Shown: positions 8,629-51,232, counted from the stretch's first letter. The stretch is 64,000 nucleotides of DNA from Candidatus Minusculum obligatum (GCA_045401155.1 CP174360.1:233403-297402), one strand, 5' to 3'. Notes: generated by a model not told the origin, from the sequence alone. Numbers and translations are program-made.

Positions 8629-8659
8629 GTGCTTTGAGCGCACACCGATGTTTGTAGAG

Positions 8660-8684
8660 ATCCGCCTTTCGGCGGATTTTTGCA
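8660..8684 (+). terminator. Rho-independent terminator hairpin
   Basis: Stem ATCCGCC/GGCGGAT with a TTTC loop followed by a T-run (TTTTTGCATTTTTT), 30 nt after the stop of the upstream + strand gene. Confidence 0.5.
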
Positions 8685-8951
8685 TTTTTTACAACTCCTC
8701 TATACACTATATATAGTTTGTAGGAAGAAGTGGGGGCGGCTGCACTCACGTATTAACATCGGTGGAGCTCGCACCCGTCCCCGCTTCTCTCTAGAAACAA
8801 TCTACATAAACTACGTAGTTACAATTTATCCACACAAAACATGATTCATGCGTCATGTTTTTTGTTTTGTGTTCGATAATACATGCATGGACACGCAGGT
8901 GAGTTCCTGCAACAGGGGTCGACTTTTATTTCAGTAAACTACGTAGATTCT

Positions 8952-9194
8952 ATGCCGGCAAAAAAGAAAGCTGCGCCTAAGCGAAAGACTGCTAAGAAAG
9001 CAGCTCCAAAGCGAAAGGTTGCAAAAAAGGCAGCACCTAAGAAAAAGGTGGCCAAGAAGGCTGCACCAAAGCGAAAGGCAGCACCTAAGAAAAAGGTGGC
9101 CAAGAAGGCTGCACCAAAGAAGAAAGCAGCTCCAAAGCGAAAGGTTGCAAAAAAGGCAGCTCCTAAGAAGCGAGTTGCAAAGCGACGAAAGTAG
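8952..9194 (+). CDS. Histone H1-like / AlgP-like lysine-alanine repeat DNA-binding protein
   Basis: The protein is almost entirely tandem KKAAPKRKVA / KKAAPKKKVA decapeptide repeats, like bacterial histone H1-like proteins (Hc1/AlgP/HU C-tail type). The start is taken at ATG 8952 (MPAKKK) rather than 8883, because the 5' extension is not repeat-like and contains an intergenic palindrome. Confidence 0.6.
   Translation: MPAKKKAAPKRKTAKKAAPKRKVAKKAAPKKKVAKKAAPKRKAAPKKKVAKKAAPKKKAAPKRKVAKKAAPKKRVAKRRK
8990..9170 (+). repeat. Tandem ~30-nt coding repeats (KKAAPKRKVA units)
   Basis: Reiterated aaagcagc(t/a)cc(a/t)aagcgaaaggttgcaaaaaaggcagc... units are visible directly. The out-of-frame ORF 9019-9246 is the same repeat read in another frame. 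Confidence 0.7.
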
Positions 9195-9252
9195 TTTCGT
9201 AGCGTATCAAAACCCTCCAGAAATGGGGGGTTTTGTGCTATCTTAGGGCAAT

Positions 9253-11739
9253 ATGATGGATATGCTCAGTCGAGTATTTGGAGGAAAACCAGGCGCTTCA
9301 GAAGTGAAGCGTTTTACACCTGTAGTTTCGCAAATTAATGCTCTTGAGGAAGAGTTTAAAGGAAAAACTGATGAAGAGCTTATTGCGGTTACAGAGTCTC
9401 TCAAGAAAGAGTTAAAAGATGGCGCATCATTTGAAAGCGTACTGCCACGAGCATTTGCAAATGTGCGAGAGGTCTCAGCGCGTCGCTCTGGCATGCGTCA
9501 CTATGACGTACAGCTTATAGGAGGACTCATTCTTACAGATGGGAAGATTGCAGAGATGCGTACGGGAGAAGGAAAGACACTTGTGGCGACACTTCCAGCG
9601 TATGCGCATGCGCTTAAGGGTAAGGGGGTACATGTTATTACGGTGAATGATTATCTTGCTCGTCGAGATGCGGCATGGATGGGGCAAGTGTATTACGGTC
9701 TTGGTATGAGTGTTGGGGTTACCACTGGTGCGGGTGCATTTATATATGACCCAGAGCACCCAGAGGTAGATGAGAAAAGAGATGAGGAAGGATTTTTCAA
9801 AATTTATGAAGAATACCTTCGTCCATGTACAAAGAAGGAGGCATACGAGGCAGATATTACATACGGTACAAACAATGAGTTTGGATTTGATTATCTTCGA
9901 GACAATACCGTATACAGCAAAGAGCAGCGAGTGCAGCGTGGTCATCACTTTGCGCTTGTCGATGAGGTGGACTCAGTATTGATTGATGAGGCACGTACAC
10001 CTCTTATTATTTCTACTCCAGATACAGAGCGGGAGAATCTGTATGAGCGCTTTGCGCAGATTGTGAAAGGCTTTACAGAAGAGGACTACACAATTGATGA
10101 GAAGCAGAAGGCGGTGCAGATTTCAGACTCTGGTATTGATAAGGCGGAGCGTGCGCTTAATGTAGATAATCTATATGTAGAAGGAGGAGTAAAGTACGTA
10201 CATCTTCTTGAGAATGCGATTCGTGCAAAGGCTTTGTTTAATAAAGATAAAGAGTACGTAGTTAAAAATGGTGAAGTAATTATTGTCGATGAGTTTACGG
10301 GGCGTATGCAGCCAGGGCGACGATGGAGTGAGGGATTACATCAGGCTGTAGAGGCAAAAGAAGGCGTGCAAATTCAAAGAGAGAGTAGGACACTTGCTTC
10401 TATTACGTTCCAGAATTATTTCCGTATGTACGATGAGCTTGCCGGTATGACTGGTACCGCACTCTCTTCAAAGGAGGAACTTTATACTGTGTATGAACTT
10501 GATACGGTTCCTGTGCCTACACATCGGGATATTCAGCGTATTGATCACAATGACCTTATTTTCCAGACTGCAAAAGGTAAGTATCAAGCGCTTGCAAAGA
10601 AGGTGAAGGAATTACATGAGAAGGGGCAGCCGGTACTTATTGGTACGGTTTCTATTGATGATAATGAAGTGGTAGATCACGTGCTTACTGATGCAAAGAT
10701 TCCGCATGAGGTGCTTAACGCAAAGAATCATGAGCGAGAGGGAGAGATTGTTGCTGATGCGGGGCGCAAAGGTGGCGTTACGGTTGCTACAAACATGGCA
10801 GGTCGTGGAGTTGATATTAAACTCGGAGGAGAGTCTGCAACTAAAGAAGAAGAAGAAGAGATCAAGAAGCTTGGAGGGCTCTTTGTGATCGGTACAGAGC
10901 GACATGAGGCTCGACGTATCGATGATCAGCTTCGTGGACGTTCAGGGCGTCAGGGAGATCCAGGGGAAACACAGTTCTATGTGTCACTTGAAGATAAGCT
11001 GATGCGTATCTTTGCCACAGATTCTATAAAAGCAATGATGGGGCGTTTTGGTATTCCAGAAGATGAGCCTATTGCAAACAAGATGATCACCGGAGCACTT
11101 GAGAACGCACAGAAGAAAATTGAGGGCGTAAACTTTGATACACGTAAGCAGATTCTTGCGTATGACGATATTCTTAATCACCAGCGACAGATCTTCTATG
11201 AGAAGCGCAATACAATCGTAGATGGAGAGAAAGAAGATATTGAAGCTTACATTAAGAGTGTTGTTGCAGGTACTCCTGCAGAGGAGGCGCTTAAGAATAA
11301 AGAAGAAGCTTTTGGAGAAGAGAAACTTTATACAGGTATGCGGGGATTGCTACTACAACTTCTTGATGCACTGTGGCTCGATCATCTTGAGACTATGGAG
11401 TACCTACGACGATCTGTATCGCTTCGGGCGTACGGGCAGCGTGATCCACTCATCGAGTATCGTCGGGAGGGTCTACGGCTCTTCAAAGAGCTTGAGGAGG
11501 CTATTAATGCTCGTATTGTTGAGCTTGTTCCGCACATTGAAGAGAAGAAGTCTGAGCCAAAGCCGGTTGAGATTGTGATGGAAGGTGGATCAGAAGAGGC
11601 AAGTACAACCACTGTAGTAAAGGGTGATAGTTACGGTCGTAATGATATGGTGAAGGTGACAGATGGAAAGGAGGTAAAGGAGATGAAGTACAAGAAAGCA
11701 GAGGCACTTCTTGCTGCTGGTTGGCGTATCCAAAAATAA
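9253..11739 (+). CDS. secA: Preprotein translocase ATPase SecA
   Basis: 828 aa with the DEAD-like motor motifs ('MRTGEGKTLVATLPAY', 'LVDEVDSVLIDEARTPLIIS', 'TNMAGRGVDIKLGG') and collinear SecA architecture. Confidence 0.95.
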   Translation: MMDMLSRVFGGKPGASEVKRFTPVVSQINALEEEFKGKTDEELIAVTESLKKELKDGASFESVLPRAFANVREVSARRSGMRHYDVQLIGGLILTDGKIAEMRTGEGKTLVATLPAYAHALKGKGVHVITVNDYLARRDAAWMGQVYYGLGMSVGVTTGAGAFIYDPEHPEVDEKRDEEGFFKIYEEYLRPCTKKEAYEADITYGTNNEFGFDYLRDNTVYSKEQRVQRGHHFALVDEVDSVLIDEARTPLIISTPDTERENLYERFAQIVKGFTEEDYTIDEKQKAVQISDSGIDKAERALNVDNLYVEGGVKYVHLLENAIRAKALFNKDKEYVVKNGEVIIVDEFTGRMQPGRRWSEGLHQAVEAKEGVQIQRESRTLASITFQNYFRMYDELAGMTGTALSSKEELYTVYELDTVPVPTHRDIQRIDHNDLIFQTAKGKYQALAKKVKELHEKGQPVLIGTVSIDDNEVVDHVLTDAKIPHEVLNAKNHEREGEIVADAGRKGGVTVATNMAGRGVDIKLGGESATKEEEEEIKKLGGLFVIGTERHEARRIDDQLRGRSGRQGDPGETQFYVSLEDKLMRIFATDSIKAMMGRFGIPEDEPIANKMITGALENAQKKIEGVNFDTRKQILAYDDILNHQRQIFYEKRNTIVDGEKEDIEAYIKSVVAGTPAEEALKNKEEAFGEEKLYTGMRGLLLQLLDALWLDHLETMEYLRRSVSLRAYGQRDPLIEYRREGLRLFKELEEAINARIVELVPHIEEKKSEPKPVEIVMEGGSEEASTTTVVKGDSYGRNDMVKVTDGKEVKEMKYKKAEALLAAGWRIQK

Positions 11740-11745
11740 AATACT

Positions 11746-12753
11746 ATGGCATTCGTAGATGAGGTATACATATTTGCCCGTGCGGGTAATGGAGGAGACG
11801 GTGTTGTTCGTTGGTCTACTTCACGTGGGAAGCCAAAGGGAGGGCCTGCAGGAGGAGATGGAGGTCGTGGAGGAGACGTATATTTTGAGGCCGTACGAGA
11901 TCTCGCATTTTTGAGCACATATCGACATACTAAAAGCTTTGCCGCAGAGGATGGGGGAGATGGAATGAAGAATGATATGGAGGGTAAAAATGGAGAAGAT
12001 CTCATTCTCCAGGTTCCTGTGGGAAGCGTGGTAGTAAATAAAGACACTGACGAAGTGTTTGAGCTTGTTCATGAAGGAGAGCGGGTGCGTGTGCTTCAAG
12101 GTGGTCGAGGAGGTTTTGGAAACACTCATTTTAAAAGTTCTCGCAACGTTGCGCCAAGGCAGTCTACGACCGGGAAGCCAGGAGATCGAGGCAATTTTCA
12201 TATTGAACTAAAACTTTCTGCCGATATCGGCCTTATCGGATTTCCAAATGCAGGGAAGAGTTCACTATTAAACGCGCTTACAAATGCAAAGTCGCAGATT
12301 GGCGCATATCCATTTACGACACTAGAGCCACATCTCGGAAGCTTTTTTGGATACGTGCTTGCAGATATTCCTGGTCTTATCGAAGGCGCTTCATCTGGGA
12401 AGGGGCTTGGAGATAAGTTTTTACGCCATATCTCGCGTACCCGAGTATTATTTCATCTTGTTTCAGCAGAAGAGGAGGATGTATTGGAGCGATATCATAC
12501 TATCCGAGATGAGCTAAAAGCCTACGGAAAGGGGCTAGATGAGAAGCGCGAGATTATCGTGTTGTCTAAGGTAGATACTGTAGACCCTGAATCACAGGAG
12601 AAATATGTGAAAGAATTAGAGGGAGAGGGGAAGGAAGTATGGGTACTCTCTGTAGAGGATTCTAAGATTTTGAAGGAATTCTCAGCCAAAGTGTCACAGT
12701 TGCTTCAGGAGGAAGAGGCTAGTAAAGTAAAGGAAACGGAAGAAGATGTCTAA
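11746..12753 (+). CDS. obg: GTPase Obg/CgtA
   Basis: The Gly-rich N-terminal Obg fold 'GGDGGRGGDVYF' is followed by G-domain motifs 'GFPNAGKSSLLN' and 'DIPGLIEGAS'. Confidence 0.93.
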   Translation: MAFVDEVYIFARAGNGGDGVVRWSTSRGKPKGGPAGGDGGRGGDVYFEAVRDLAFLSTYRHTKSFAAEDGGDGMKNDMEGKNGEDLILQVPVGSVVVNKDTDEVFELVHEGERVRVLQGGRGGFGNTHFKSSRNVAPRQSTTGKPGDRGNFHIELKLSADIGLIGFPNAGKSSLLNALTNAKSQIGAYPFTTLEPHLGSFFGYVLADIPGLIEGASSGKGLGDKFLRHISRTRVLFHLVSAEEEDVLERYHTIRDELKAYGKGLDEKREIIVLSKVDTVDPESQEKYVKELEGEGKEVWVLSVEDSKILKEFSAKVSQLLQEEEASKVKETEEDV

Positions 12754-14152
12754 ATACAAACCAACAATTGGACTTGAGATTCATGCGGAGCTAAAGACAG
12801 CTACGAAGATGTTTTGTGACTCTAAGAATGCGCCGCATGCAAGTGAGCCTAATACGCACGTATGTCCTATTTGTATGGCGCACCCAGGAACACTTCCTGT
12901 GATCAATAAAGAGGCGGTACGACATGTGTGTCGTGTGGGAGTTGCGCTTGGCGCAAAACTTGCAGACTTTACCGAGTTTGATCGGAAGAATTATTTCTAT
13001 CCAGATATTCCAAAGGGGTATCAGATTAGTCAGTACAAGTATCCTCTAGTCTCTGGAGGAAGTTTAAATAATATAGAGATCACACGTGTGCATCTTGAAG
13101 AAGATACTGCGCGATCTTCTCACAAGGGGAATGAATCACTCATTGATTTTAATAGAGCGGGAGTTCCACTTATGGAGCTGGTGACGGAGCCGGTGATTCA
13201 TTCAGCAGAAGAGGCGAGTGCATTTGCCCGCGAACTTCAGATGCTTCTTCGTACACTTGGGGTGTCAGATGCAAATCTTGAGAAAGGGGAGATGCGTATC
13301 GAGGCAAATATTTCTATTAGTGATACTGATGCGCTTGGAACAAAAGTTGAGGTTAAAAATCTAAACTCATTTAGATCAGTTGAGCGTGCGATTGCGTATG
13401 AGCTTAAGCGACATGAGAAAGTGCTTGAGGAGGGAGGAGAGCTTCTTCAGGAGACTCGTGGATGGGATGAGGGTAAGCAGGAGACATTCTCTCAGCGTCT
13501 TAAGGAGGGTGCTGCGGACTATCGATATTTCGCAGAACCAGATCTTCCAAAATTGAAACTCTCAGAGATTCCAGAGTTTGCAGAAGATGTGTTGAAAGAA
13601 ACTCTTCCAGAGCTTCCGTGGGAGAAGCGTACTCGCTACGAAGGTCTTGGACTTAAGGAAGAAGATGTTACGTATCTTGTATCAAGTGTTGAGCGGGCAG
13701 AGTTTTTCGATACAGTGCTTGAGTCTATTGATGAGAAAAATATTGCAAAGGCAGTTAACTACCTAACCTCAGATGTTGCTGGTTTTTATAATGAGGTAGA
13801 TACACCAGAGTTTGAGAAACTCTCACCTAAAGCATTTGCAGAAGTGATTAGCATGCTTGCGGCAGATGAGATTTCATCTCGGGGAGCAAAAGATATTCTA
13901 CGAGTCCTTATGGAGGAGGGAGGAGAAGCACGCACTGTTGCAGAAGAAAAGAGTTTATTCCAAGTACAGGACACAGAGGCTCTTAAAGAAGTAGTGCTTG
14001 AAATCATCAAAGAAAATGAATCTGTTGTTGAGGAGTACAAGGGAGGTAAGGAAGCATCTCTTCAGTTTTTGGTAGGGCAAGGTATGAAGAAAACTAAAGG
14101 TGCTGCAAACCCGGGTCTTCTAAAAGAGGCTATTCTTGCCGAGATAGGCTAG
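12746..14152 (+). CDS. gatB: Asp-tRNA(Asn)/Glu-tRNA(Gln) amidotransferase subunit B
   Basis: 'PTIGLEIHAELKTATKMFC' and 'NYFYPDIPKGYQISQY' are GatB signatures. It overlaps the obg stop by 8 nt. Confidence 0.93.
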   Translation: MSKYKPTIGLEIHAELKTATKMFCDSKNAPHASEPNTHVCPICMAHPGTLPVINKEAVRHVCRVGVALGAKLADFTEFDRKNYFYPDIPKGYQISQYKYPLVSGGSLNNIEITRVHLEEDTARSSHKGNESLIDFNRAGVPLMELVTEPVIHSAEEASAFARELQMLLRTLGVSDANLEKGEMRIEANISISDTDALGTKVEVKNLNSFRSVERAIAYELKRHEKVLEEGGELLQETRGWDEGKQETFSQRLKEGAADYRYFAEPDLPKLKLSEIPEFAEDVLKETLPELPWEKRTRYEGLGLKEEDVTYLVSSVERAEFFDTVLESIDEKNIAKAVNYLTSDVAGFYNEVDTPEFEKLSPKAFAEVISMLAADEISSRGAKDILRVLMEEGGEARTVAEEKSLFQVQDTEALKEVVLEIIKENESVVEEYKGGKEASLQFLVGQGMKKTKGAANPGLLKEAILAEIG

Positions 14153-14178
14153 AAAATAAGGTTATCTCGTTGTTATTC

Positions 14179-14208
14179 TTGCCGAGACCGGAGGGTCTCG
14201 GCTATAAT
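14179..14208 (+). promoter_or_regulatory. Candidate sigma70-type promoter (TTGCCG-N18-TATAAT) overlapping a hairpin, immediately upstream of the 14216 ATG
   Basis: The -35-like TTGCCG at 14179-14184 and TATAAT at 14203-14208 are visible. The hairpin GCCGAGACC-GGAG-GGTCTCGGC at 14181-14202 sits between them, and the start codon is only 7 nt after the -10, which suggests a leaderless or very short leader mRNA. Confidence 0.4.
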
Positions 14209-14215
14209 ATATGTA

Positions 14216-14992
14216 ATGAAAGAGCTTACATTAAACGGGCGCACGTATTTGAGCACGAAGCGCGCAGCAGAAATTACTGGTTATACAACAGACTATGTCG
14301 GGCAGCTTGCTCGACAGGGAAAGGTGGATGCGCAACTTGTTGGGCGCAATTGGTATATAAGTGAAGAGGCAATTAAAAAGCACAAGTTTGGAGAGGCTTC
14401 GGTAGTGATAAAAAGAGAAGAGGAAGAAGTATCAGCTCCGCAGCTTGAAGTTCTTGTAAGTGCCACTGATGATGTTCTTGAAGTGGATGAAAAAGAAGAG
14501 GTTCCAGTTGAAGAAAACGTTGCAGAAGAAAAAGTTTCATCAGAAAACTCTCTTACAGAAATGCAAAGTGCGTGGCAAGAATGGTACAAGGCTCAACGAT
14601 CAGTTCCTACAGAAGAGGAAGAAGTTTTCTTAAGCAAAAATGATATTGAGGAAGAGAAGGCTTCAGAAGAAGTTTCTGTACCGATAACTAAAATGGAGTC
14701 TCCAAAAATAACACGTATTAACAATGATGTTAGTGCACCAACAGAAGTTGTTGAAGTTAAGCATGAAGAGGAGCGTGCACCCATGCCCTCACCTGTACAG
14801 GTAAGAGATCTTCCAGCAAAGCGTTCATGGACAGGAACAGGGTTGGTCGCTGCTGCGCTCGTAGCAATTCTGTTTGTAGGTGTCATTACAGTTTCTACTA
14901 CGTACGTACTCACAAAAAATACGGATACGCCTGTTGCAGCAGCTTTTCAAAGTCTTGAGGATTACCTACTTGGAATCAAGCGAATTGAATAG
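14216..14992 (+). CDS. Membrane protein with N-terminal excisionase/MerR-type HTH domain, acidic linker and C-terminal TM helix
   Basis: The N-terminus 'TKRAAEITGYTTDYVGQLARQGKVDAQLVGRNWYISEEAIKKH' is an HTH_17/excisionase-type HTH. A long E/D-rich linker follows, then a TM segment 'GLVAAALVAILFVGVITV' near the C-terminus. The HTH is clearly paralogous to the N-terminus of the downstream giant ORF. Confidence 0.6.
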   Translation: MKELTLNGRTYLSTKRAAEITGYTTDYVGQLARQGKVDAQLVGRNWYISEEAIKKHKFGEASVVIKREEEEVSAPQLEVLVSATDDVLEVDEKEEVPVEENVAEEKVSSENSLTEMQSAWQEWYKAQRSVPTEEEEVFLSKNDIEEEKASEEVSVPITKMESPKITRINNDVSAPTEVVEVKHEEERAPMPSPVQVRDLPAKRSWTGTGLVAAALVAILFVGVITVSTTYVLTKNTDTPVAAAFQSLEDYLLGIKRIE

Positions 14993-15100
14993 TTATTCTA
15001 TCCGAGATCTCCGAGATAGGTTATAAATAAAGCATATATCGGTCACCGAGATATCCGATAAGTCAGTAAAAGTAAGGTAAATAGAGCTTGGAGTGGTGTA

Positions 15101-15133
15101 AAAGCCCAGGAAACACAATTCCTGGGCTTTTTG
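15101..15133 (+). terminator. Rho-independent terminator
   Basis: AAAGCCCAGG-aaacacaatt-CCTGGGCTTT followed by TTTT, about 110 nt downstream of the stop at 14992. Confidence 0.55.
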
Positions 15134-15656
15134 TACAAGTCTTTGTAGAGAAAGATTCTTTATATACTCTTTCTTTGCTTAAGCAACTTATATCCTTAGG
15201 AGTTTTTTATTTAAAAATATCTCGGATACATATATATAGGTATAAGGGCAGGCGTATCTTCAAATATTAAGACCCTCAAGTTTTATTTTTTTATTGATTT
15301 ATATAGCTATTCTTTCAGTTCGTTAAAATTTTGTGTCGCAAAACAGCTTATATAAATTTACTTTATAAAAAATCCATTTCATCATTTCGAGTAAGTGTTT
15401 TTTGTTTGAACTGGGTATTTAAAATACGTTTCTAGTACAGCAGGTTTATGTGTAGTGTTTCTTTGGAGAAATATTTAATACTTTTCAAAGTAAATTTTGC
15501 TTCGAAATAAGAGGTTTAACAGTTTAATTTTTTATAATTCTCGGTAGGAAAACTTTTCTACGTAAACTACGTATTTATTAAAAAAGTATCCACATACAAA
15601 GTGCGTCAATACGGGAAATATTAGGTAAAATAATAGGGAAATCGTATATCCGTACT

Positions 15657-18600
15657 GTGTCTGCCGATTCAGAAAAATTTATTCCAACAAAGGAAGCTGC
15701 GTCTCTAGTCGGGCGTACTTCTGATTACGTTGGTCGACTTGCTCGAGAAGGGAAAATACCTGCGAGTCGGATTGGTCGATCTTGGGTTGTGAGTAAAAGA
15801 GCACTTCTGGAATATTTTGATGTTCAAGAGTCTGTAAAAGAAATTAAAAAAGAAAAACTTTCTCAAACAAGAAAAGAAGAATACAAGGAGGTCCAGAGGC
15901 CAAAAGCTAACGTTGGAAAAAGCTTAACAATTTTTGTTCAGAAGCTGCCAGTTGAAAATCTTGTTTCTTTTGCAGTTGCGGTCCTTGTTGTGTTTGGAAG
16001 TTTTTCTCTAGTGCATGCTTCTGGTTTAGCAAAGCTTCCAAAAGTTGCTCTTGATGTGATTCATGAAAAGGTTGTCTCTTTGAATCGAGGAATTGCAAGT
16101 GCAACAAACGGTCCTCGTCCAACATATGTAGGGAACTACGTAGTTGAAAAAGAAAACTTTGAAGTAGAGGGGTTTGAGATGAACAATATTTTTGCATCAG
16201 CCCTCGAAGGGTTTGAGAGTGTTGGAGAAGGTTTTGAATATCAAGGATTTTCAAAAAAGAATGACTACGTAGTTGAAGGTGATGATGGTCTGTCTCTCGT
16301 TGCTGTTTGGAATAATTACGTTGCACTAGGAGAAGGGATCGTGGAGACCTCTCATGTTTTGTCTCAAGCATATGTAGATCTTGTGCACGCGTTAGGTAAG
16401 GGGACTCTGCAGAACGCACTTGCCGCGAGAGATCTCTCACGAGCACTACATAGAAACACATTTGTTGCATATGAGTCTGGCGTGAACACTTACGTGAGTT
16501 CTCTTCAGGTAGCTCCAGATGCGTATACGGGTGCTGTATACGCTTTCGTAGATGAGAGTTATAAGATTACTAATGCTTTCGCTAAGGCTCCACTTCAGGT
16601 TGGTAATGCGATTCTTTCTTCGTCTCAGTCTATTCCTGAAGGGAACCAAAAGATCGGTTCTGGATTGCGTATAATAATGCCGGCTTTAGGTGAGGCTATT
16701 ATTAGCAGCCATGAACGTCTTGTGTATGGTTTTGTCGAGTCTTCATACGCTGTTGTAGATGCGTATAAGGATTCAATTATGCGTGCTGGTGACCATGTTG
16801 GAGGAGCGTATGCTTTTGCTCGTTTTGATTTGCCACCTAAGGTCGGCAAGGGTCTCGCAAATGCCTTTATGGCAACTACAGATGTTGTAGACGAGAGTGT
16901 AGAGCGCGCAGGAGAATATCTAGCGCAAGCATACATTGTACCAGCCGTTACAGTTACTTTGTCTGGGATTGAGGGTGTTCAGCATGATGTAGAGGGCTTC
17001 TCTAAAAATCTTGCGTCCGGGACTATTGCTAAAAAGAGTCTTTTTGAAGATGTTGCAGAGTCTGCACAGGCAAATGTTGTGGATGGTGTTCAGAACTTCT
17101 TTGCTCGAATCTTTGGGCGCGGAGAAGATCCTGTGCTTCTTGTAAACCCAGGGCCAGCTCAGACGAATGTTGTTATTAAAGAAGATGAGCCTGCGGTAAT
17201 CACTCCTGGAAACGTTGTTCAGAACTTCTTTGCAACAACAGATGTAAGTAAGAGCTACGTAGATGCCGGTATTACTTCATTGCATGCTGCGCTTTCTGCA
17301 GAAATACAAAAGCTTACTTCATTGAACCGCAACCAGATTATTCAGAACATTCAAACTACACATGTTCTTAATCGAATTGAAGATCTTACAGATACAATTC
17401 TTCGTACACCTGAAATTATCGGAGGAACACTCGATGATGTAGACATTCGAGGAAATTCTAATTTCTCAGGAAACACAGTCTCAGGAAATGAGTTTATTGG
17501 TGGTACCGCAAGCTTTGGAACAACAACTGTTTCTGAGATTAACGTAACAAATAACATTACAGCAGGAGGAGTACTTTCTGTTGCAGGTCTTACATCAAAC
17601 GGAGTTCTAACAGGACCGTACTTTACTGCAACAAGTACCACTGCAACTTCTACATTTGCTGGAAGTATAGCGGTTGATACAGACGGGTTCGTGTATGCAA
17701 CAAGCACTCGAAATGTTGGTATTGGAGTACTCTCTCCAAGTGCGCTTCTTTCGCTTCAAAACTCTACAAGTACACAGCCAATTGCGACGTTTGCAAATGA
17801 TTCTGGTTCTGAGTTATTCCGGTTTACAAATACTGGATATTTAGGAATTGGAACAACAAGTCCATATGAAGCGCTTTCAGTAGATGGAAATGGTGTGTTT
17901 ACAGGAACACTTACAGCAGGAGCAACGACGCTTTCGGGGGCGTTGGTTGGTACAACGGCAGAATTTACTTCTGGAACTACCACAAATGCTACAAGTACTA
18001 ACTTCTTTGCAACAAATGGGCGGTTTACCAATCTGATTGGCACAAATGCCACTATTACTGCAGCTACAACCACAAACTTCTACGCATCTATTTTTGACGC
18101 CGCGACAGCTGCACTCACAAATCTTGTAGCCACAAACGCCACAAGTACTAACTTTGCAGTTAGCTCTCTTGCACAAGGTTCAGTTCCATTTATTGGAACA
18201 GGGGGACGGTTAATTGATGATAATGCCAACTTCTATTGGGATGATACAAATAACCGTCTTGGCATTGGAACAAGTTCTCCGTATGCGAAGCTTTCTGTAG
18301 TAGGACAAACAGTGTCTGAATACTTTACAGCAACAAGCACCTCGCTTGTATCTACATTTCCGCTTGCGAGTTTTACATCTGCAACATCAACACAGCTTGC
18401 AGTAAATTCTCTGACATCAGGACGCCTGCCGTATGTCACTACAGGAGGTCGGTTGATCGATGATGCAGACCTTACATTCGACGGCACAACGCTTACGGGG
18501 ACAGATTTGATCTTCACTCGAGCAACCACCACAAATGCAACAAGTACCAACTTATCTGTGTCAGGAACCTTTAATGCGGTGACAGGAGGAGCTCAAGCTG

Positions 18601-21600
18601 CTGGAATTACAGTAAATGCAGATGGGTATGTAGGTATTAATAATACGAGTCCATTATCCCCACTTGATGTGACTGTTTCTGCGGCAAAGCCAGCTGTATT
18701 CAGAGGAACAACTGAGCCACGTGTTCGATTTGTTGCAAATGGAAGCAATGTCGGACTTCTAAATGGATATGTTGGAGATTCTTTCCGTGTGTACTCTTCA
18801 AGTGGGCTGCCGCTTCACATAGGAGCAAATGAGAGCACGCAGCTCCGCTTTACCACAACAGAGATTAATGTAAGTGATGATCTTATTCCTACTGCAAATG
18901 CAACATATGATCTTGGTTCTCCATCATTTTATTGGGACGATGCATACCTAGATTCTTTGACGGTAAATAACCTTTCAGCTGCATCTACATCTATTGCAGG
19001 TACAAATAATGCTTCATTCTCAATTAACTCAGACAACGCAACATCAGATGGTGAAGATGCATCACTTGTGTTTTATCGAGGCGTGGTGGTGCCAAATGCA
19101 GTGATTACGTGGGATGCAAGCGAAGATCATTTTGATTTCAACCAGAATATATTTATTCAAAATGATAATGGAGGAATTGCAACATCAACACTTGCGATTC
19201 GTGCGGCAAGTGGGCAGACAGGAAATCTATTTACAGTGCAGGATGTAAATGGTCTTGAGCTTGCAAACTTTGGGGTAAATGGATACTTGGGACTTGGGAG
19301 CTCAAGTCCATCAGTGCGCCTTACAGTTGGTACAGGCACCCCAAGTTCAATCGCTTCAGGTAATTACTATAATAGTGCGTATGTAAGTGGGGATCTTGAA
19401 GTGGATGGAACTATTTACGGAACGGTAAGTGGGGCAGTGACACCTGCTGGATTTACAGAAGGTTCGGTGGTGTTTGCGGGATCTGGAGGGACACTAACGC
19501 AAGATAATAGTAATTTTTACTGGGATGACTCAAATAATAGACTTGGAATCGGAACCTCAAGTCCGCGTAGAGCACTTCATATTGCAGAGAACAATCCATC
19601 ATTCCTCCTTGAAGATGTTTCTGGAGCTTCTGCAGGACAAAAGGTTTTGCGATTTAACTATACAGGGGGAACGGTAGATTCAGAGAGTAATTTTGCAGTA
19701 CAGTCTGCAACTGATATTGGGGGATTTTCTGAAAATCTTTTCCAGATTTTCAGAAACGGACAGGTAAGTATTAATGGAGACGCAACCCCAGAGTTTACGC
19801 TTGAGGTTTCAGGCAATGAAGGAAGTGCTGGATATTTTGGACTGTCTTCAAATACCTCAAGCGCTGGAAACATATTTATTGTTGATGGTTCAGGAAATGT
19901 TGGAATTGGTACAACTACCCCGGGGGCACGACTTCATTCTCTAAGTACAGGTACACAGCTTAGACTTGGATACGATTTTGATACGTATGCTGATTTTCAG
20001 GTTGGGTCAGGTGGCGTAACCACATTTAGTGGCGCTGGTCTTGAGTTGGATAATACAGCTGGTAATAGAATTAAACTTTCGCAAGATGGTGCAAGCGGAT
20101 GGTCAAATGAGCTTGCACTTACAGATGGATCTCAGGAATGGTGGATTCGTACAATCGCAGGACGCTTTAGTGTTCGTGATCAAACAGGCGGATCAAATGG
20201 AGTGTTTGATATTGAGGCAGGAGCTCCTGCTGAATCACAAAGTATCCAGTCAGACGGAGATGTCATCTTTGGTGTAGGAAATGTAGGAATTGGAACCACT
20301 TCTCCATATGCAAAGCTTTCAGTAGTCGGGCAAGCAGTTGCTGAGTACTTCACTGCAACAAGCACGTCGCTTGTTTCTACGTTCCCTCAGGCAAGCTTTA
20401 CATCAGCAACATCAACAAACTTCTATACCAGCACCTTTGGTATTAATAGTGAATACATTTCAGATCTTACAGGAAATGGTCTTTCAATCTCAGGCGGGCA
20501 GCTAAACGTTGCAACGAGCTCGCTTTCTGCAACCTCTGGATTCTTTTTGCAAAATGGAAATAGTTTTGGAGAAACTGCAGTTCTTGGAACAAATGATAGT
20601 AATAGTCTGGCATTTGAGACAGGAGGGTCTACAAGAGTAACTATTGATACAAGTGGAAACGTGGGAATCGGTGATACAAGCCCTGATGCTCAACTTGATA
20701 TTGTGGATACATCAACAACAGGAGCAGGTCTTATTGTTCAGAAAGATCTTGCAGCATCACGCTACACTACGAATGTTGAATCACAGTTCTCAATTCGAGG
20801 AAATACAGATGATACGGAGCGGTTGTTAATTGGGTACGCCACTGATGAAAATTATGGATATATAGAAGCTGTAGATTTCGGGAGCACCTTTAACAGGGAT
20901 TTGGTGCTTAATAGTCAGGGTGGAAACGTAGGAATTGGAACTACAACTCCTAATGTTCCACTTGAGGTACTTCGTTCAGGTGCTGCTGGGTATACATGGA
21001 CTCCAAATGCTCGTACCGCAGCACTATTCCAAAATAGTAGCGCTTCAGGTTCTGCTATTGGAATTATTGGAAAATCAACAGGATCAAGTTTTATCTGGTT
21101 TGGAGACGAGGCTTCAGAGACAATTGGACAGATTGGATTTAATCACACAAGTAATACCTTCTCTATTGAAACAGCGGGAGGGGCTGGAGACTTGTTCATC
21201 AACTCTAGTGGAAACGTAGGTATTGGAACCACAACAATAAACGCAAGCTTGACTGCGAGTGTTGCCTCAACAGGAGATGTGCTTTCTCTTGTGCGAAATG
21301 ACAACGGAAATAGGTGGGCGCTAGATCTTGGAGGAAATAATCTTAATTTCAAGTTTAATGGTGGAAATGATATTGTCACTATTAATAATGGTGCCCCAGC
21401 TGCTTCTCTTTATGTAGGGACTACAGGTGTGGGAATCGGTACAACAAGTCCATTAAGTAAGCTACATGTTGCTGGGCAAGTTACTATTGATGGCACAAAC
21501 TATTCTCGAGTAGAGTACGCGCGCAATGGTACAGATGTATGGACTGCTGGACTGCACGAAAGTGATGATTTTGAATTTTTCCGAACAAGTGGTTCGGGGA

Positions 21601-24600
21601 ATATTATTCTCCGAGCGGGCAACTTGAGTGTTGGTACAACAAGCCCAGCTGGGAAGTTGCATGTAGAGGGGTCCGGAACACAAAATGTTTTGGTTAAAGG
21701 TATTGGCAGTTCAGATCAGACAATACAATTTGGTCGTTCAGATCTTGCAACAAACTGGGTTGTTGGGCGTGATAATACAAGTAGCCGTTTTGGTATTGAG
21801 TACTTTTCTGAAGTTGGAGCAAGTCAGCTTACCGATAATTCCGTGTTCACCATTCTTCAGGGTGGAAACGTAGGTATTGGAACCACAACACCAGCACACC
21901 TCCTTGATGTAGATGGAGACTTCCGAGTAGGAGAGGCAGGAAGTTCAGACGCCTTCTTTGTAGATGCAACAAATGCATACATTGGAGTTGGTACTACAGC
22001 GCCAACTTCAAATCTTCATGTTGCTGGAACTGGAAACACTTTCCTTACAGTTGAGGCTGTAAATGGAAATGCTGTGCAGTGGATTTTGAAGACTGATAGC
22101 GGTAACCGTCGTTTTGTGGCTACTGATAATTCAAATGTACAACAATCTCAAATTCACTTTGCAGGGCAGAGAGAAATTGATTTCATTGGGGATTCTGTAA
22201 ATGATCCACTTGGAACATTTGAGGGCGGGAAGTTTGCGGTAGGAAAGACAAGTACACCAAACTTTGGTCTCGAGATTGCAACAAGTACTACAAACGGTTG
22301 GTTTGGTATTACAGATTCAACAGCTGGAGACATCTTCATTGTTGATGGTTCAGGAAACGTAGGAATTGGTACCACTACGCCAGTTGCAAAGCTTACCGTG
22401 CTGGACACATCGGCAGGTGCAGAAACGTTTGCGTTGTTTGGCCAGAACTCATCAGGTAGTGCGGGTACTGGTACTGGAATCAGGCTCGCACCGAGTGCTT
22501 TCTCATCAGGAGCAACGGTTCGAGCATTTGATATTGTTGCGGTAAATGATGGCGCAAATACCATTGATCTTGATTTCAGAGGTTCAAGTGGAGGAAGTCC
22601 AGCATCGCGTGTGCGAATTACTGGTGCTGGAAACGTAGGTATTGGTACTACTACGCCAGACGCAAACCTTTCTATTGTTAGTTCATCAGGAAACGATGCA
22701 ATTGTAAAGATAGAAGGAATACATAATGCTGTACCAGCTATTAAAATTACAGATGTAAGTGATAGTTCAGGAGGAATTGCACAAGTGATTCTTACTGGAA
22801 GACGTTTAGATGCAAATGTATCAGGTTCATTTGCAGGTAACTTTGCAGTAGGAAAACATTACAGTGGTGGTGCTGTTACAAGTGGGCAAAGGTTGGGAAG
22901 GTTTTTGTTTGGAGGAAATCATACGGATGGAACAATTGATAATCTTCTATACTCAGCAGGGATTACTGCAGTTGCAGAAGGTACGTTTACTAATGCCACA
23001 ACCATGCCAACAGGACTTGCGTTTTATACTGGCTCTGCAGGAGTGGCGCCAGGTACACCAAATGTAGAGCCTGGTACAGAACGTCTGCGTATTGATAATA
23101 GTGGAAACGTAGGTATTGGCACTCAAGCTCCAGGACGTAAGTTTGAGGTGGTTGATGCAACACAGCCGGCAATAAATGAAGTTGGATCATTTGGGGTTGG
23201 CGCAAGTGCTACAGAACAGGTTCGTATCGGGTACGATACCGCAGGTAGTGATTATGGGTGGATTCAATCTGCTGTATTTGGCACAAGCGCGACTAGTCTC
23301 TCACTTAATCCAAGGGGTGGAAACGTAGGAATTGGTACTACAACGCCATCTACAAAACTTGTTATTGCTGGGGCAAATTACAATGGAGAGCCAACCCACA
23401 AAGCAAAAGTGTTAATTCAAAATGATAATGCTAGCCAAACATTAAATAACACGGGAGGTATCGAATTTAGGTTAAGTGGATTTGGTTCAGGGTATGGATG
23501 GCGTATTGGAGGGTGGGACCTTGCTGCGTCTGGTGGAGGTGCGCCGTATGTGTGGGAGTTCCGAGGAAACTCTGCAACATGGTCAGAGCAGATGCGCCTT
23601 ACTGCAGATGGAAAGCTTGGTATTGGAACCACGAGTCCAACAGAGAAGCTTGAGGTGTATGGAGGAAAGATTTCAGTAGATTCTGGCGGGGCAACAGACA
23701 CAGAGTATCTAGAGTTTAGTTCTAGTGGAACAACGATTGGAGGAATTGGAAGAGACACAAATGATCTTGTGCTTTCAAGTCCATTTGGTATTCGACTTAC
23801 TGAAGGAAGCACGGATGTGCTGACTGTTGCGGGTGAAAATGTGATTATTGGTGGATCAAGCTTTGCCGGGCAAAGGGTGCAGATTACTGCAGATGCTGCG
23901 GTGCCGCTTGCGCTAAATCGTACAACAGATGATGGTGTGCTTGTCGATTTCTATCAGGCAACAACTGCTGAAGGATCAATTTCTGTTTCTGGAAACACAG
24001 TATCGTACAATGCCTTTACGGGGTCTCACTACGCAACTACAAATGAAAATATTCAAAAGGGACGCCTAGTTACCTTTACAGGAAATAATGCTCGCCTGAA
24101 TGGAAATCCAAGTTCTGAAATTTTGTATGGTATTACAGAGTCTTCAGTAGAAAACTCATCAAAGGTGTTGGGGTCAATGCTTGCGCTGGAAAGTCCAAGT
24201 AAGGTTCATTCAAATACAAATCCGTACCTTGTAATGGCGGTTGGTAACGGTGAAGTGTGGGTGGTAGATGAGGGAGAGAACCTTGAGCCAGGAGATTATC
24301 TTATTTCTTCAGATACGCTTGGGCATGCAGAGAAAGATACAGGAGCATATCCAATTTCACATATTGTTGCGCGTGTAGCAGAGCCAGTAGATTGGAGTAC
24401 GATTTCTGCAACCGTGGATGGAAAGAAACATGCGCTTGTAAGTGTTACGTTTGAGCAGTTTGATAAGCCAAACGGTATTAGTGTTGATGCGCTTGGAAAC
24501 GTAGGAATTGGAACAAGTGCGCCAGAGTACAAACTGCACGTTCTTGGGGATGCTGCTGCTACAAGCTTTGTAAACATTTCAACTCGTGAACAAAAGAAAG

Positions 24601-49948: not shown

Positions 49949-50037
49949 AGATCTGTGTGCTCTCCGTGAGGGAGAGTGGAAAGAACATTACAATTGTCGC
50001 CGAGAATATCGGCGACGCAATAGAGAGGAGAATCGAG

Positions 50038-51183: not shown

Positions 51184-51232
51184 CATTCGTGTCCGGGCAG
51201 GAAACTGTCCGGACACATCACCTCTCTTTTTT

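What the first reader, a model, noticed from the sequence alone, without database searches (positions are those of the whole stretch)
8808..16274. Recurring palindrome (T)AAACTACGTAG(TT): three copies in the promoter regions of the histone-like gene and the giant gene, two more inside the 5' end of the giant ORF
AACTACGTAGTT at 8808-8819 is a perfect 12-bp palindrome. GTAAACTACGTAG is at 8934-8946, CGTAAACTACGTA at 15561-15573, AACTACGTAGTT at 16134-16145 and ACTACGTAGTT at 16264-16274.

A given 10-mer is expected about 0.1 times in 64 kb on both strands, so five copies clustered within 7.5 kb is non-random. The palindromic TACGTA core is typical of a dimeric HTH operator.

The sites flank exactly the genes encoding the nucleoid-like KKAAP protein and the two HTH-containing membrane proteins, suggesting a shared regulator, possibly those HTH domains themselves. 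The two intragenic copies fall in duplicated peptide segments (NYVVEKE / DYVVEGD), so they may instead be a by-product of an internal duplication.
Basis: seen in the sequence. Interest (0 to 1): 0.55.

Follow-up and report, generated by a model that had tools for sequence, protein, structure and literature searches.

The report
Conserved palindromic operator in a Parcubacteria lineage
The repeated palindrome is real and is kept by selection at the DNA level in six related uncultured Parcubacteria, where it most likely acts as a protein-binding switch shared by a histone-like gene and a giant surface-protein gene whose product carries its own DNA-binding domain.

Summary
AACTACGTAGTT with at most one mismatch occurs 5 times in 64 kb (0.08 expected), all within 8.8-16.3 kb. 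One coordinate is off by one.

The window is a Parcubacteria/Paceibacterota (CPR) chromosome. I recovered five further syntenic lineages. All carry the motif (consensus AAYTACGTARTT) at the same places:
- A 9-bp-spaced tandem pair upstream of the histone-like KKAAP gene and of the giant gene (6/6 each).
- A copy next to the KKAAP start codon (5/6), always 127-129 bp from the tandem.
- A copy about 477 bp into the giant ORF (6/6).
- A second intragenic copy (4/6), lying in three different reading frames.

In 5.4 kb of aligned giant gene, AACTACGTAG is the only internal run of 9 or more nt identical in four lineages. The intragenic copies are therefore not a peptide-duplication by-product.

Both tandems lie 7-12 nt upstream of TTATCCACA (the DnaA-box consensus). 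That box precedes these same two gene families across Paceibacteria.

Best reading: the operator of an unidentified oligomeric DNA-binding protein that co-regulates the two genes, probably by bridging upstream and downstream sites. The best candidate, unproven, is the MerR/Xis/BldC-like winged helix at the N-terminus of the giant membrane protein. No genome-wide count was possible.

The parts
8802..8820 (.). Tandem pair upstream of the KKAAP gene. Unit 1 is CTACATAA (degenerate). Unit 2 is the perfect 12-bp palindrome AACTACGTAGTT. Units are spaced 9 bp apart.
   Evidence: CTACGTAG at 8811-8818 is invariant in four independent lineages and the tandem is present in 6/6 lineages.
8826..8834 (+). 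TTATCCACA box (exact DnaA-box consensus), 7 nt downstream of the tandem and 40 nt upstream of GATAAT.
   Evidence: The box, its orientation and its 38-43 nt spacing to a GATAAT hexamer are conserved upstream of K/A/R-rich histone-like genes across Paceibacteria loci.
8875..8880 (+). GATAAT, the likely -10 hexamer of the KKAAP promoter (inferred).
   Evidence: GATAATACA is invariant in four lineages and conserved class-wide. No transcription start data exist.
8889..8922 (+). Conserved 5' leader: GGACACGCAGGTGAGTTCCTG hairpin followed by a GGTCGA box.
   Evidence: Invariant blocks. The GGTCGA box and a variable hairpin before it occur in 25 of 26 histone-like gene leaders examined.
8937..8948 (.). 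Downstream KKAAP site AACTACGTAGAT, ending 3 nt before the start codon, where a ribosome-binding site would sit. It lies 128 bp from the upstream palindrome.
   Evidence: Present in 5/6 lineages (absent in L141/L008). The distance to tandem unit 2 is 127-129 bp in all five.
8952..9194 (+). KKAAP histone-like gene (80 aa, Lys/Ala/Pro-rich), a target gene.
   Evidence: no Pfam match. The start at MPAKKK is conserved in relatives.
15558..15576 (.). Tandem pair upstream of the giant gene: CTACGTAA + ACTACGTATTT, spaced 9 bp apart.
   Evidence: CTACGTAA and TACGTATTT are invariant in four lineages. Present in 6/6 lineages.
15586..15595 (+). GTATCCACAT box (8/9 match to TTATCCACA), 31 nt upstream of TAAAAT.
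   Evidence: TTATCC[AC]CA lies 31-32 nt upstream of a TAnnAT hexamer and 59-60 nt upstream of the start codon of the HTH membrane gene in roughly 25 other Paceibacteria loci.
15626..15631 (+). TAAAAT, the likely -10 hexamer of the giant-gene promoter (inferred).
   Evidence: Conserved in alignment A3 (TAAAAT, or TAAACT in L083). No transcription start data exist.
15657..25949 (+). Giant gene (3430 aa): N-terminal HTH_17 winged helix, one transmembrane segment, a large extracytoplasmic part with Peptidase_S74 and Ig-like domains. It is a target gene and the candidate regulator.
   Evidence: Structure model with pLDDT 84.6. Nearest folds are TraN, Xis, MerR (NmlR), BldC and RacA.
16134..16145 (.). 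Intragenic copy 1, AACTACGTAGTT (codons N-Y-V-V), 477 nt into the ORF.
   Evidence: Present in 6/6 lineages. It is the only run of 3 or more codons identical in four lineages over 1800 codons, and the only internal run of 9 or more nt.
16263..16274 (.). Intragenic copy 2, GACTACGTAGTT, 129 bp after copy 1.
   Evidence: A copy occurs near this place in 4/6 lineages but in three reading frames: xAC TAC GTA, TCT ACG TAT, GAA CTA CGT.
17253..17264 (.). Possible intragenic copy 3, AGCTACGTAGAT, about 1600 nt into the ORF.
   Evidence: CTACGTAGAT or TTACGTAGAT occurs at the homologous column in 4/6 lineages and is lost in two. Weaker evidence than for the other copies.
14216..14992 (+). Small membrane-anchored HTH protein (258 aa), a paralogue of the giant protein's N-terminus and a less likely candidate regulator.
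   Evidence: HTH_17 at 21-24 bits, below Pfam's cut-off of 27. Its promoter carries the CCGAGA...TCTCGG inverted repeat, not the palindrome.

Best explanation
The palindrome (consensus AAYTACGTARTT with a TACGTA core) is a protein-binding DNA site, an operator. It is maintained by purifying selection in one lineage of Paceibacteria (Parcubacteria, CPR).

It marks a small regulon containing the histone-like KKAAP gene and the giant surface-protein gene. In both promoters a 9-bp-spaced tandem pair sits immediately upstream of a TTATCCACA box, which is the older, class-wide control element of these same two gene families. Further copies lie downstream of each promoter: one beside the KKAAP start codon, a constant 127-129 bp away, and two or three in the first 0.5-1.6 kb of the giant ORF.

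Inferred mechanism: an oligomeric sequence-specific protein occupies the upstream tandem and the downstream sites and bridges them, as in gal- or lac-type looping. This represses the two promoters or modulates the TTATCCACA-dependent promoter.

The best candidate for the protein is the MerR/Xis/BldC-like winged helix at the cytoplasmic N-terminus of the giant membrane protein, which would make the system autoregulatory.

Shown: the sites, their symmetry, their orthologous conservation and their frame-independent conservation. Inferred: protein binding, looping, the sign of regulation and the identity of the protein. The confidence given (0.6) is for the general claim of a protein-bound regulatory DNA site shared by the two genes; for the giant protein as the binder I put about 0.3.
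For: - Enrichment: 5 sites against 0.08 expected in the window. Across six lineages (214 kb) there are 24 exact CTACGTAG against about 3 expected from base composition, and 23 of them fall in the defined site classes.
- Orthologous conservation in six syntenic lineages whose giant proteins are 38-57% identical in the four lineages aligned. The sites form invariant islands in otherwise diverged intergenic DNA.
- DNA-level selection in coding sequence. AACTACGTA(G) is the only run of 3 or more identical codons, and the only internal run of 9 or more nt, over 1800 codons in four lineages. Identical-codon rates at conserved N, Y and V columns are otherwise 0.15, 0.08 and 0.10.
- Internal control: a strictly conserved D-Y-V in the HTH helix uses variable codons.
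- Copy 2 lies in three reading frames.
- Symmetric conservation of the flanks across 46 units (A at -2 in 37/46, T at +9 in 36/46), as expected for a dimer.
- Fixed geometry: 7 nt (KKAAP) or 11-12 nt (giant) from tandem to TTATCCACA, and 127-129 bp between the upstream and start-codon sites in five lineages.
- The K-type and G-type versions of the tandem block differ in the same way in every lineage, so each is conserved independently rather than recently copied.
- Candidate protein. The giant N-terminus matches HTH_17 at 38.7 bits (domain alone) or 31.7 bits (whole protein), against a cut-off of 27. The model has pLDDT 84.6. BldC, Xis, RacA and MerR are the nearest folds. BldC binds 9-bp direct repeats head to tail, while MerR and RacA bind palindromes as dimers (PMC5859096).
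- All six motif-bearing lineages share the signature VGRTSDY(V/I)(G/S)RLAR(E/Q)G(K/R)IP. Relatives outside the clade mostly have GY..DY.
Against: - No binding or expression data exist. No transcription start sites are known, so the positions relative to the promoters are inferred from conserved hexamers.
- A genome-wide count was not possible. The source genome is not in the searchable contig collections, and only 24-64 kb per lineage was read.
- One lineage pair has three more units at 12-bp spacing between two convergent gene ends (L138 29694-29730; the same place in L140). That is not a promoter position, so the binder may not be a simple transcription factor.
- Spacing between the intragenic copies is not constant (34, 126, 129, 134 bp).
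- Co-occurrence of the motif with the HTH signature is clade-wide and would hold for any clade-specific protein.
- The recognition helix (DYxxxLxR) is nearly invariant across the whole family. That fits a family-wide target such as TTATCCACA better than a clade-specific one.
Confidence: 0.6

Rival explanations
1. Chromosome-organisation or tethering sites rather than operators. Clustered palindromes would be bound by the membrane-anchored winged-helix proteins to hold this chromosomal region at the membrane. This is analogous to RacA-ram or ParB-parS, and any effect on transcription would be secondary.
For: - Sites occur in promoters, in coding sequence (frame-independent) and between convergent 3' ends (L138 29694-29730). 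That is the distribution typical of parS-, ram- or matS-type sites.
- RacA's DNA-binding domain is among the nearest folds.
- Both HTH proteins have a transmembrane segment.
Against: - The promoter copies keep fixed distances to the TTATCCACA box and to the start codon in all lineages, which suggests a promoter-linked role.
- Only 8 units were seen in 64 kb, all at two genes.
- There is no sequence similarity to parS, and ParB is not involved.
Confidence: 0.12
2. An RNA-level element. Because the motif is self-complementary, two copies in one transcript can pair. In a long KKAAP leader, the upstream copy would pair with the copy at the start codon and hide the translation start.
For: - Folding 8800-8975 as RNA pairs the two copies in the minimum-energy structure (-45.7 kcal/mol, z = -3.0).
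- A sigma-70-like promoter (8688-8717) and a conserved hairpin lie upstream, so a long leader is conceivable.
- Frame-independent conservation fits RNA as well as DNA.
Against: - L141/L008 keeps the upstream tandem although it has lost the start-codon copy.
- The giant-gene tandem lies upstream of the conserved -10 hexamer and has no partner in the short leader.
- The two intragenic copies are not paired in the predicted fold (z = -0.96).
- RNA pairing needs complementarity between copies, not a palindrome within each copy, yet each unit is individually symmetric.
Confidence: 0.1
3. Operator of an ordinary soluble transcription factor encoded elsewhere in the genome (for example a ribbon-helix-helix protein, which typically binds tandem short palindromic units as MetJ does). 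The neighbouring HTH proteins would be unrelated to the motif.
For: - Tandem 8-bp palindromic units at 9-bp (promoters) or 12-bp (L138) spacing resemble the arrays bound by RHH repressors (own knowledge of MetJ, Arc and omega).
- The HTH recognition helix is nearly invariant family-wide while the motif is clade-specific.
Against: - The highest site density is at the 5' end of the giant gene itself, the usual signature of autoregulation.
- No other DNA-binding gene was seen in the window apart from an RHH antitoxin at 37837-38049, identified from its sequence and its pairing with the adjacent toxin-like ORF. It was not scanned against Pfam.
Confidence: 0.25
4. No function: chance, oligonucleotide bias, a by-product of a duplicated NYVV/DYVV peptide, or a REP-like repeated palindrome.
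For: - Two copies encode N/D-Y-V-V.
- A conserved D-Y-V in the HTH helix produces CTACGTAG by chance in one lineage (L081/L082 11519).
- TACGTA itself is not rare (32 sites in the window).
Against: - 0 of 100 shuffles reach the observed count.
- Orthologous conservation holds in six lineages with saturated synonymous sites.
- Copy 2 lies in three reading frames.
- Sites occur inside a gene, unlike REP elements.
- The tandem pattern found in viral contigs lies in unrelated coding genes.
Confidence: 0.03

Closest known systems
gal (OE/OI, GalR with HU) and lac (O1/O2/O3) looping operators of E. coli
   Same: Palindromic operators sit both upstream of the promoter and downstream of the start, including inside the first structural gene (lac O2 lies about 400 bp inside lacZ). 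The KKAAP pair brackets the promoter at a fixed 127-129 bp, similar to the roughly 113 bp of gal (own knowledge for the E. coli values; here).
   Different: The protein is unknown and not of the LacI/GalR family as far as can be seen. The promoter sites are 9-bp tandem pairs. The intragenic spacing is variable. No binding or looping has been shown.
BldC, Xis, RacA and MerR group of winged-helix proteins (Pfam HTH_17 / MerR)
   Same: The N-terminal domain of the giant protein matches HTH_17 above Pfam's cut-off. Its model superposes on BldC (rmsd 1.3-1.8 A), Pukovnik Xis (1.6 A) and RacA (2.5 A). BldC binds 9-bp direct repeats head to tail, while MerR and RacA bind palindromes (PMC5859096). The sites here are palindromes arranged as 9-bp tandems.
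   Different: Here the domain is fused through a long helix and a transmembrane segment to a 3300-aa extracytoplasmic protein. The BldC repeat (AATTxxxxC) and the RacA ram site (GC-rich) are unrelated in sequence to AAYTACGTARTT. Binding is untested.
Membrane-bound one-component regulators (ToxR, CadC, TcpP)
   Same: The topology is an N-terminal cytoplasmic DNA-binding domain, a single transmembrane segment and an extracytoplasmic part (the N-in orientation is inferred from the Lys/Arg-rich stretch before the hydrophobic segment).
   Different: Those proteins carry an OmpR-type winged helix and a small periplasmic sensor. Here the domain is MerR/Xis-like and the external part is a giant adhesin-like protein with Peptidase_S74 and Ig-like domains. 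A regulatory role is not shown.
DnaA box (TTATCCACA) used as a transcriptional control site
   Same: An exact 9-mer consensus lies at 8826-8834 and an 8/9 match at 15586-15594, next to the palindromes. The box is conserved in one orientation at a fixed distance from the -10 hexamer upstream of the same two gene families across Paceibacteria.
   Different: This is not the palindrome itself. There are single boxes rather than a cluster, and there is no GC-skew switch, so this is not an origin. Whether DnaA or the HTH family binds the box is unknown.

Membership tests
Palindromic operator of a dimeric DNA-binding regulator | Dyad symmetry of the site, with symmetric conservation of both halves | tested here: met
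   Across 46 units, the TACGTA core is invariant apart from the two degenerate KKAAP upstream units (window CTACATAA, L138 CTACAGGA). Position 0 is Y and position 7 is R in 38/46. A occurs at -2 in 37/46 and T at +9 in 36/46.
Palindromic operator of a dimeric DNA-binding regulator | Conserved at orthologous regulatory positions in related genomes while the flanks diverge | tested here: met
   Six lineages. The sites are invariant islands in alignments A2 and A3.
Palindromic operator of a dimeric DNA-binding regulator | A cognate protein binds the site | not testable with these tools
   Needs EMSA, footprinting or DAP-seq.
DNA-looping repression (gal/lac type) | Operators on both sides of the promoter or start site | tested here: met
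   KKAAP: 8809-8820 and 8937-8948 bracket GATAAT at 8875. Giant gene: 15558-15576 lies upstream, and 16134, 16263 and 17253 lie inside the ORF.
DNA-looping repression (gal/lac type) | Conserved operator spacing or helical phasing | tested here: inconclusive
   The KKAAP pair is 127-129 bp apart in 5/5 lineages. The tandem to intragenic copy 1 distance is 567-573 bp. The intragenic pair is 34, 126, 129 or 134 bp apart.
HTH_17 / MerR-like winged helix (BldC, Xis, RacA) | Pfam HTH_17 match above the gathering score | tested here: met
   Giant protein: 31.7 bits for the whole protein and 38.7 bits for the domain alone, against a cut-off of 27. The small HTH protein scores 21-24 bits, below the cut-off.
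HTH_17 / MerR-like winged helix (BldC, Xis, RacA) | Winged-helix fold of the MerR/Xis type | tested here: met
   AlphaFold2 model with pLDDT 84.6 and element order E-H-H-E-E-H. Foldseek top hits are TraN, Pukovnik Xis, NmlR, BldC and RacA, with probability 0.97-1.0 but weak E-values of 0.02-0.2.
HTH_17 / MerR-like winged helix (BldC, Xis, RacA) | The domain binds this motif | not testable with these tools
   Only co-occurrence is available: all six motif-bearing lineages share VGRTSDY(V/I)(G/S)RLAR(E/Q)G(K/R)IP.
Membrane-bound one-component regulators (ToxR/CadC type) | OmpR-type winged-helix DNA-binding domain | tested here: not met
   The domain is HTH_17/MerR-like, and no OmpR-type match was found. 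The topology (N-terminal DNA-binding domain plus one transmembrane segment) is similar.
DnaA box | 9-mer TTATCCACA | tested here: met
   Exact at 8826-8834 and 8/9 at 15586-15594. This applies to the neighbouring box, not to the palindrome.
DnaA box | Cluster of boxes at a replication origin | tested here: not met
   Single boxes. Cumulative GC skew rises steadily through 0-54 kb with no switch at 8-16 kb.
ParB parS site | 16-bp palindrome TGTTNCACGTGAAACA | tested here: not met
   Read directly from the site sequences, the motif shares only the central ACGT with parS. The parS consensus is from own knowledge.
REP / BIME repeated extragenic palindromes | Confined to extragenic regions, 20-40 bp imperfect palindromes, variable between relatives | tested here: not met
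   The units are 12 bp, three copies lie inside an ORF, and positions are orthologously conserved.
By-product of an internal peptide duplication | The DNA motif follows the peptide repeat (same frame, free synonymous sites) | tested here: not met
   Three reading frames for copy 2, fixed codons for copy 1, and variable codons at a conserved D-Y-V control.

The most novel reading that the evidence does not exclude
The giant surface protein is itself the regulator. Its N-terminal MerR/Xis-like winged helix, held at the membrane, would bind the palindromes in its own promoter, inside the 5' end of its own gene, and at the histone-like gene. This would be a membrane-tethered, self-sensing circuit, possibly acting in cis while the 3430-aa chain is still being made. 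It would also pin this chromosomal region to the envelope. It is layered on an older, class-wide TTATCCACA (DnaA-box-like) control of a histone-like gene.
Probability: 0.3. Interest if true: 0.8.

Novelty: new member of a known kind. Interest (0 to 1): 0.6.

Why it matters
Almost nothing is known about gene regulation in CPR/Patescibacteria, which are uncultured or hard to manipulate.

This work gives a concrete, testable regulon:
- a defined 12-bp operator;
- two target genes, a nucleoid protein and a giant envelope protein;
- a defined geometry of sites;
- a short list of candidate binding domains that can be expressed and tested in vitro.

It also shows that the same two gene families share a TTATCCACA box across the whole class. 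That box could link nucleoid-protein and surface-protein expression to DnaA or to a widespread family of membrane-anchored winged-helix proteins.

If the giant protein binds its own gene, it would be an unusual kind of membrane-bound regulator.

Tried and rejected
- Known RNA families. Rfam at gathering score over the whole window found only tRNA-Thr. An E-value search up to 10 over 8600-9260 gave only noise. tmRNA and SRP RNA ideas for the conserved blocks near 8762-8785 and 8915-8923 were dropped.
- Exact-protein look-ups of window genes (14216, 63182, 1244) found nothing. The window could therefore not be extended, and no genome-wide count was possible.
- The search for homologous proteins with giant residues 1-350 at E <= 1e-5 returned nothing. 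The representative search worked instead.
- A scan of viral contigs for the tandem returned 40 hits, roughly the number expected by chance by my estimate. All hits inspected lie inside conserved phage coding genes (peptides TYVNYVW and ELRKLRS among them) and are unrelated.
- Single-sequence PDB searches of the HTH domains gave nothing significant. A profile hit only AM32/TraN-like proteins.
- Literature searches for the motif string, for TTATCCACA in Patescibacteria, for CPR regulons and for giant HTH proteins found nothing relevant.
- No convincing -35 element fits the idea that the tandem itself is a promoter (TAAACT as -10, or a minus-strand promoter). This was read from the sequence.
- DnaA-trio, R-M avoidance and invertible-promoter ideas were rejected. 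There is no 3-nt periodicity. TACGTA is not depleted (32 sites). The orientation is the same in all lineages.
- RNAalifold on the MAFFT alignment of class-wide KKAAP leaders predicted no pairs because the hairpins are not aligned.
- No dnaA gene lies in any fetched locus, so the DnaA-box consensus could not be checked in these organisms.

Full report
**Observation.** AACTACGTAGTT is exact at 8809-8820 and 16134-16145. One-mismatch copies lie at 8937-8948, 15565-15576 and 16263-16274. That makes 5 matches against 0.08 expected, and no shuffle reaches 5. The exact 10-mer occurs 3 times against 0.03 expected. I add two things. Each promoter copy is preceded 9 bp upstream by a second unit (CTACATAA at 8802, CTACGTAA at 15558), so the promoter sites are tandem pairs. 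A further copy, AGCTACGTAGAT, lies at 17253 in the giant ORF. No other place in the 64 kb matches the tandem pattern with up to 3 mismatches in a convincing way.

**Context.** The window is a chromosome segment of a Parcubacteria/Paceibacterota (CPR) bacterium. Gene order around the finding is:
- Wzy_C/TPR protein (6772-8628);
- an 80-aa Lys/Ala/Pro-rich histone-like gene (8952-9194);
- secA, obg and gatB;
- a 258-aa protein with an N-terminal HTH and a C-terminal transmembrane segment (14216-14992);
- a 664-bp AT-rich spacer;
- a 3430-aa gene (15657-25949) with an N-terminal HTH_17 domain, one transmembrane segment, and Peptidase_S74 and Ig-like domains;
- gap.

The best GatB relative in the genome collection is 75% identical (Candidatus Wolfebacteria NORP156). 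All others are at or below 65%. The order gatB, small HTH gene, HTH-giant gene recurs in more than 30 Paceibacteria loci.

**Relatives.** Three routes gave five more lineages of the same clade, all syntenic:
- L008/L141 (NVRX02000007);
- L081/L082/L140;
- L083/L138/L139 (a 555-kb contig);
- L142;
- L143.

In the four lineages I aligned, the giant proteins are 38-57% identical. Where the amino acid is the same, the codon is the same in only 39-53% of cases. Synonymous sites are therefore largely randomised.

**Conservation of the sites.**
- The KKAAP tandem is present in 6/6 lineages. Two lineages use TTACGTAAATTACGTAG.
- The copy next to the KKAAP start codon is present in 5/6, and lies 127-129 bp from the tandem every time.
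- The giant-gene tandem is present in 6/6.
- Intragenic copy 1 is present in 6/6.
- A second intragenic copy is present in 4/6.
- A third copy, near +1600, is present in 4/6.

In the two intergenic alignments, the blocks invariant in four independent lineages are few. Upstream of KKAAP they are CTACGTAG, TTATCC, GATAATACA, a 21-nt leader hairpin, GGTCGA, TCTATG, and two short blocks (GTGGAGCT and ACCCG) that belong to the upstream hairpin described below. Upstream of the giant gene they are TTCTCG, CTACGTAA, TACGTATTT, GTATCCACAT, TAATA, GGAAATCG and the start of the gene. Across the six lineages (214 kb) there are 24 exact CTACGTAG, and 23 of them lie in these site classes. From base composition I estimate about 3 by chance.

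**Nucleotide-level selection inside the gene.** Over 1800 aligned codons in four lineages, the only run of three or more identical codons is N-Y-V (AAC TAC GTA). Conserved N, Y and V columns otherwise share a codon in only 15%, 8% and 10% of cases. Over 5.4 kb, the only runs of 9 or more invariant nucleotides are the gene start and AACTACGTAG. The flanking protein sequence is poorly conserved. A strictly conserved D-Y-V in the HTH helix uses GAT/GAC, TAC/TAT and GTT/GTA/GTG freely. The second copy reads GAC TAC GTA (window), AAC TAC GTA (L083), TCT ACG TAT (L081/L082) and GAA CTA CGT (L008), which is three different frames. This rules out the peptide-duplication by-product.

**Shape of the site.** Forty-six units give the consensus wAAYTACGTARTTw, with matching conservation on the two sides. 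In the promoters two units are 9 bp apart centre to centre. In L138 three units are 12 bp apart.

**The neighbouring TTATCCACA box.** Both tandems lie just upstream of TTATCCACA. The match is exact at 8826-8834 and 8/9 at 15586-15594. The gap from tandem to box is 7 nt at KKAAP and 11-12 nt at the giant gene, in every lineage. This 9-mer is the DnaA-box consensus (own knowledge).

Across the 97 loci then held plus the window, TTATCC[AC]CA occurs 101 times, 88 of them on the gene strand. Most copies lie upstream of one of two gene types. The first is the K/A/R-rich histone-like gene, with the box 38-43 nt before a GATAAT hexamer and 117-168 nt before the ATG. The second is the HTH membrane or giant gene, with the box 31-32 nt before a TAnnAT hexamer and 59-60 nt before the ATG.

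So the pairing of the histone-like gene with the HTH-giant gene is class-wide and old. The palindrome is a clade-specific layer added next to the old box. None of L001-L080 except L008 has it. GC skew shows no origin here.

**Candidate binding protein.**
- The giant protein's N-terminus matches HTH_17 above Pfam's cut-off. The small protein scores below it.
- A model built on 32 family members has pLDDT 84.6. It shows a winged helix followed by a long helix (47-79) leading to the transmembrane segment.
- The nearest solved folds are TraN, Pukovnik Xis, the MerR protein NmlR, BldC and RacA. Foldseek probability is about 1, but E-values are weak, as expected for a 50-residue domain.
- In this class, BldC and Xis bind direct repeats head to tail, with a 9-bp repeat for BldC. 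MerR and RacA bind palindromes as dimers (PMC5859096).
- All six motif-bearing lineages share VGRTSDY(V/I)(G/S)RLAR(E/Q)G(K/R)IP. Other family members mostly have GY..DY.
- The small protein's helix (GYTTDYVGQLAR) also occurs outside the clade. Its own promoter is covered by a different inverted repeat, CCGAGA-N-TCTCGG.
- If one of the two neighbours binds the palindrome, the giant protein is therefore the likelier. This is inference. The near-invariant recognition helix across the family is a point against a clade-specific target.

**Mechanism.** I favour an oligomeric protein that occupies the upstream tandem and the downstream copies and bridges them. At KKAAP the two positions bracket the conserved GATAAT hexamer and the leader, and the downstream copy sits where a ribosome would bind. 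At the giant gene the downstream copies lie 567-573 bp and further from the tandem. This is the layout of gal and lac. Because the tandem abuts the TTATCCACA box, the protein could also act by helping or hindering whatever binds that box. The sign of regulation cannot be told from sequence.

**Rivals.**
- RNA pairing is possible for KKAAP if transcription starts upstream of 8802. It does not explain L141, the giant-gene tandem, the unpaired intragenic copies, or why each unit is itself symmetric.
- A role in chromosome tethering gains some weight from the non-promoter cluster in L138/L140 and from the RacA-like fold.
- A soluble factor encoded elsewhere cannot be excluded.
- Chance, codon effects and REP-like repeats are excluded by the comparative data.

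**Limits.**
- No complete genome of the clade could be scanned.
- No transcription starts are known.
- No binding data exist.
- L081 and L082 are close relatives that differ at a few positions, and L082 matches L140 at every site examined. L083, L138 and L139 are likewise one lineage. Each group counts once.

**Verdict.** This is a real, conserved, DNA-level operator-like element linking two genes in a little-known bacterial group. The class of element is familiar. The setting and the candidate regulator are unusual.

Noticed in passing
window 8826-8834 and 15586-15594; about 90 places in loci L002-L097: TTATCC[AC]CA, the DnaA-box consensus, sits in one orientation at a fixed distance upstream of two gene families across Paceibacteria. 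These are the K/A/R-rich histone-like gene (38-43 nt before GATAAT) and the HTH_17 membrane or giant gene (31-32 nt before TAnnAT, 59-60 nt before the ATG). It is either a DnaA-controlled pair or the family-wide operator of the HTH_17 proteins.
   Followed up: partly
window 8716-8798: An 85-nt hairpin just upstream of the KKAAP tandem, preceded by a sigma-70-like promoter (TTTACA-18-TATAGT, 8688-8717). Folding gives -42.9 kcal/mol and z = -5.6, with three compensated pairs in four sequences. L008 keeps only the 3' half. No Rfam match. It may be a small RNA.
   Followed up: partly
window 8881-8951; 25 other loci: The 5' leader of the histone-like gene is conserved class-wide. It has a variable hairpin closed by GUUUG...CAGAC-like arms, then an invariant GGTCGA(C) box 30-45 nt before an ATG that lacks a Shine-Dalgarno sequence (often ACCACCATGGCA). 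It may be a cis-regulatory RNA leader. RNAalifold on a MAFFT alignment failed to align the hairpins.
   Followed up: partly
window 14125-14208, 14995-15063, 15217-15232, 15538-15545: A second motif family: (TTATTCTTG)CCGAGA(T) and its complement TCTCGG. An inverted repeat, CCGAGACCGGAGGGTCTCGG, overlaps the TTGCCG-18-TATAAT promoter of the small HTH gene, and copies are scattered through the spacer before the giant gene. Positions are conserved in all six lineages. Other clades have TCGGATATCCGA directly before the giant gene's ATG, and L053 has four copies of TCTCGGATAGCCGAGA.
   Followed up: partly
window 15333-15343: GTGTCGCAAAA is conserved in the middle of the long spacer upstream of the giant gene in all six lineages. 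Its function is unknown.
   Followed up: no
L138 29694-29730; L139 25335-end; L140 25790-end: Three palindromic units at 12-bp spacing (TAACTACGTAGTTAATTACGTAATTAACTACGTAGATG) overlap the stop codon of an ABC2_membrane gene. They lie between two convergent genes, next to an ordinary terminator hairpin. The window lacks this transporter gene.
   Followed up: partly
proteins P0007-P0150: The HTH module is widespread: 3569 cluster representatives at E <= 1e-3. Most relatives of 150-900 aa carry two tandem copies of the domain. Several are giants of 1700-7200 aa.
   Followed up: no
window 49220-54073: A sortase gene (49220-49948) is followed by about 4 kb with the highest G+C of the window (0.51). 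This stretch holds two long overlapping ORFs (49957-51183, 50906-54073) with no Pfam match, and has no rRNA or other Rfam match. It may be a frameshifted or fast-evolving sortase substrate.
   Followed up: partly
window 27414, 28582, 35034, 59608, 60368: Five genes begin with the type IV pilin-like N-terminus GFTLIELLVVVAIIGMLSSVVLSSLN. The N_methyl motif was confirmed for one of them.
   Followed up: no
window 37837-38309: A small ribbon-helix-helix antitoxin-like ORF and an adjacent toxin-like ORF overlap by 4 nt. They were not scanned against Pfam.
   Followed up: no
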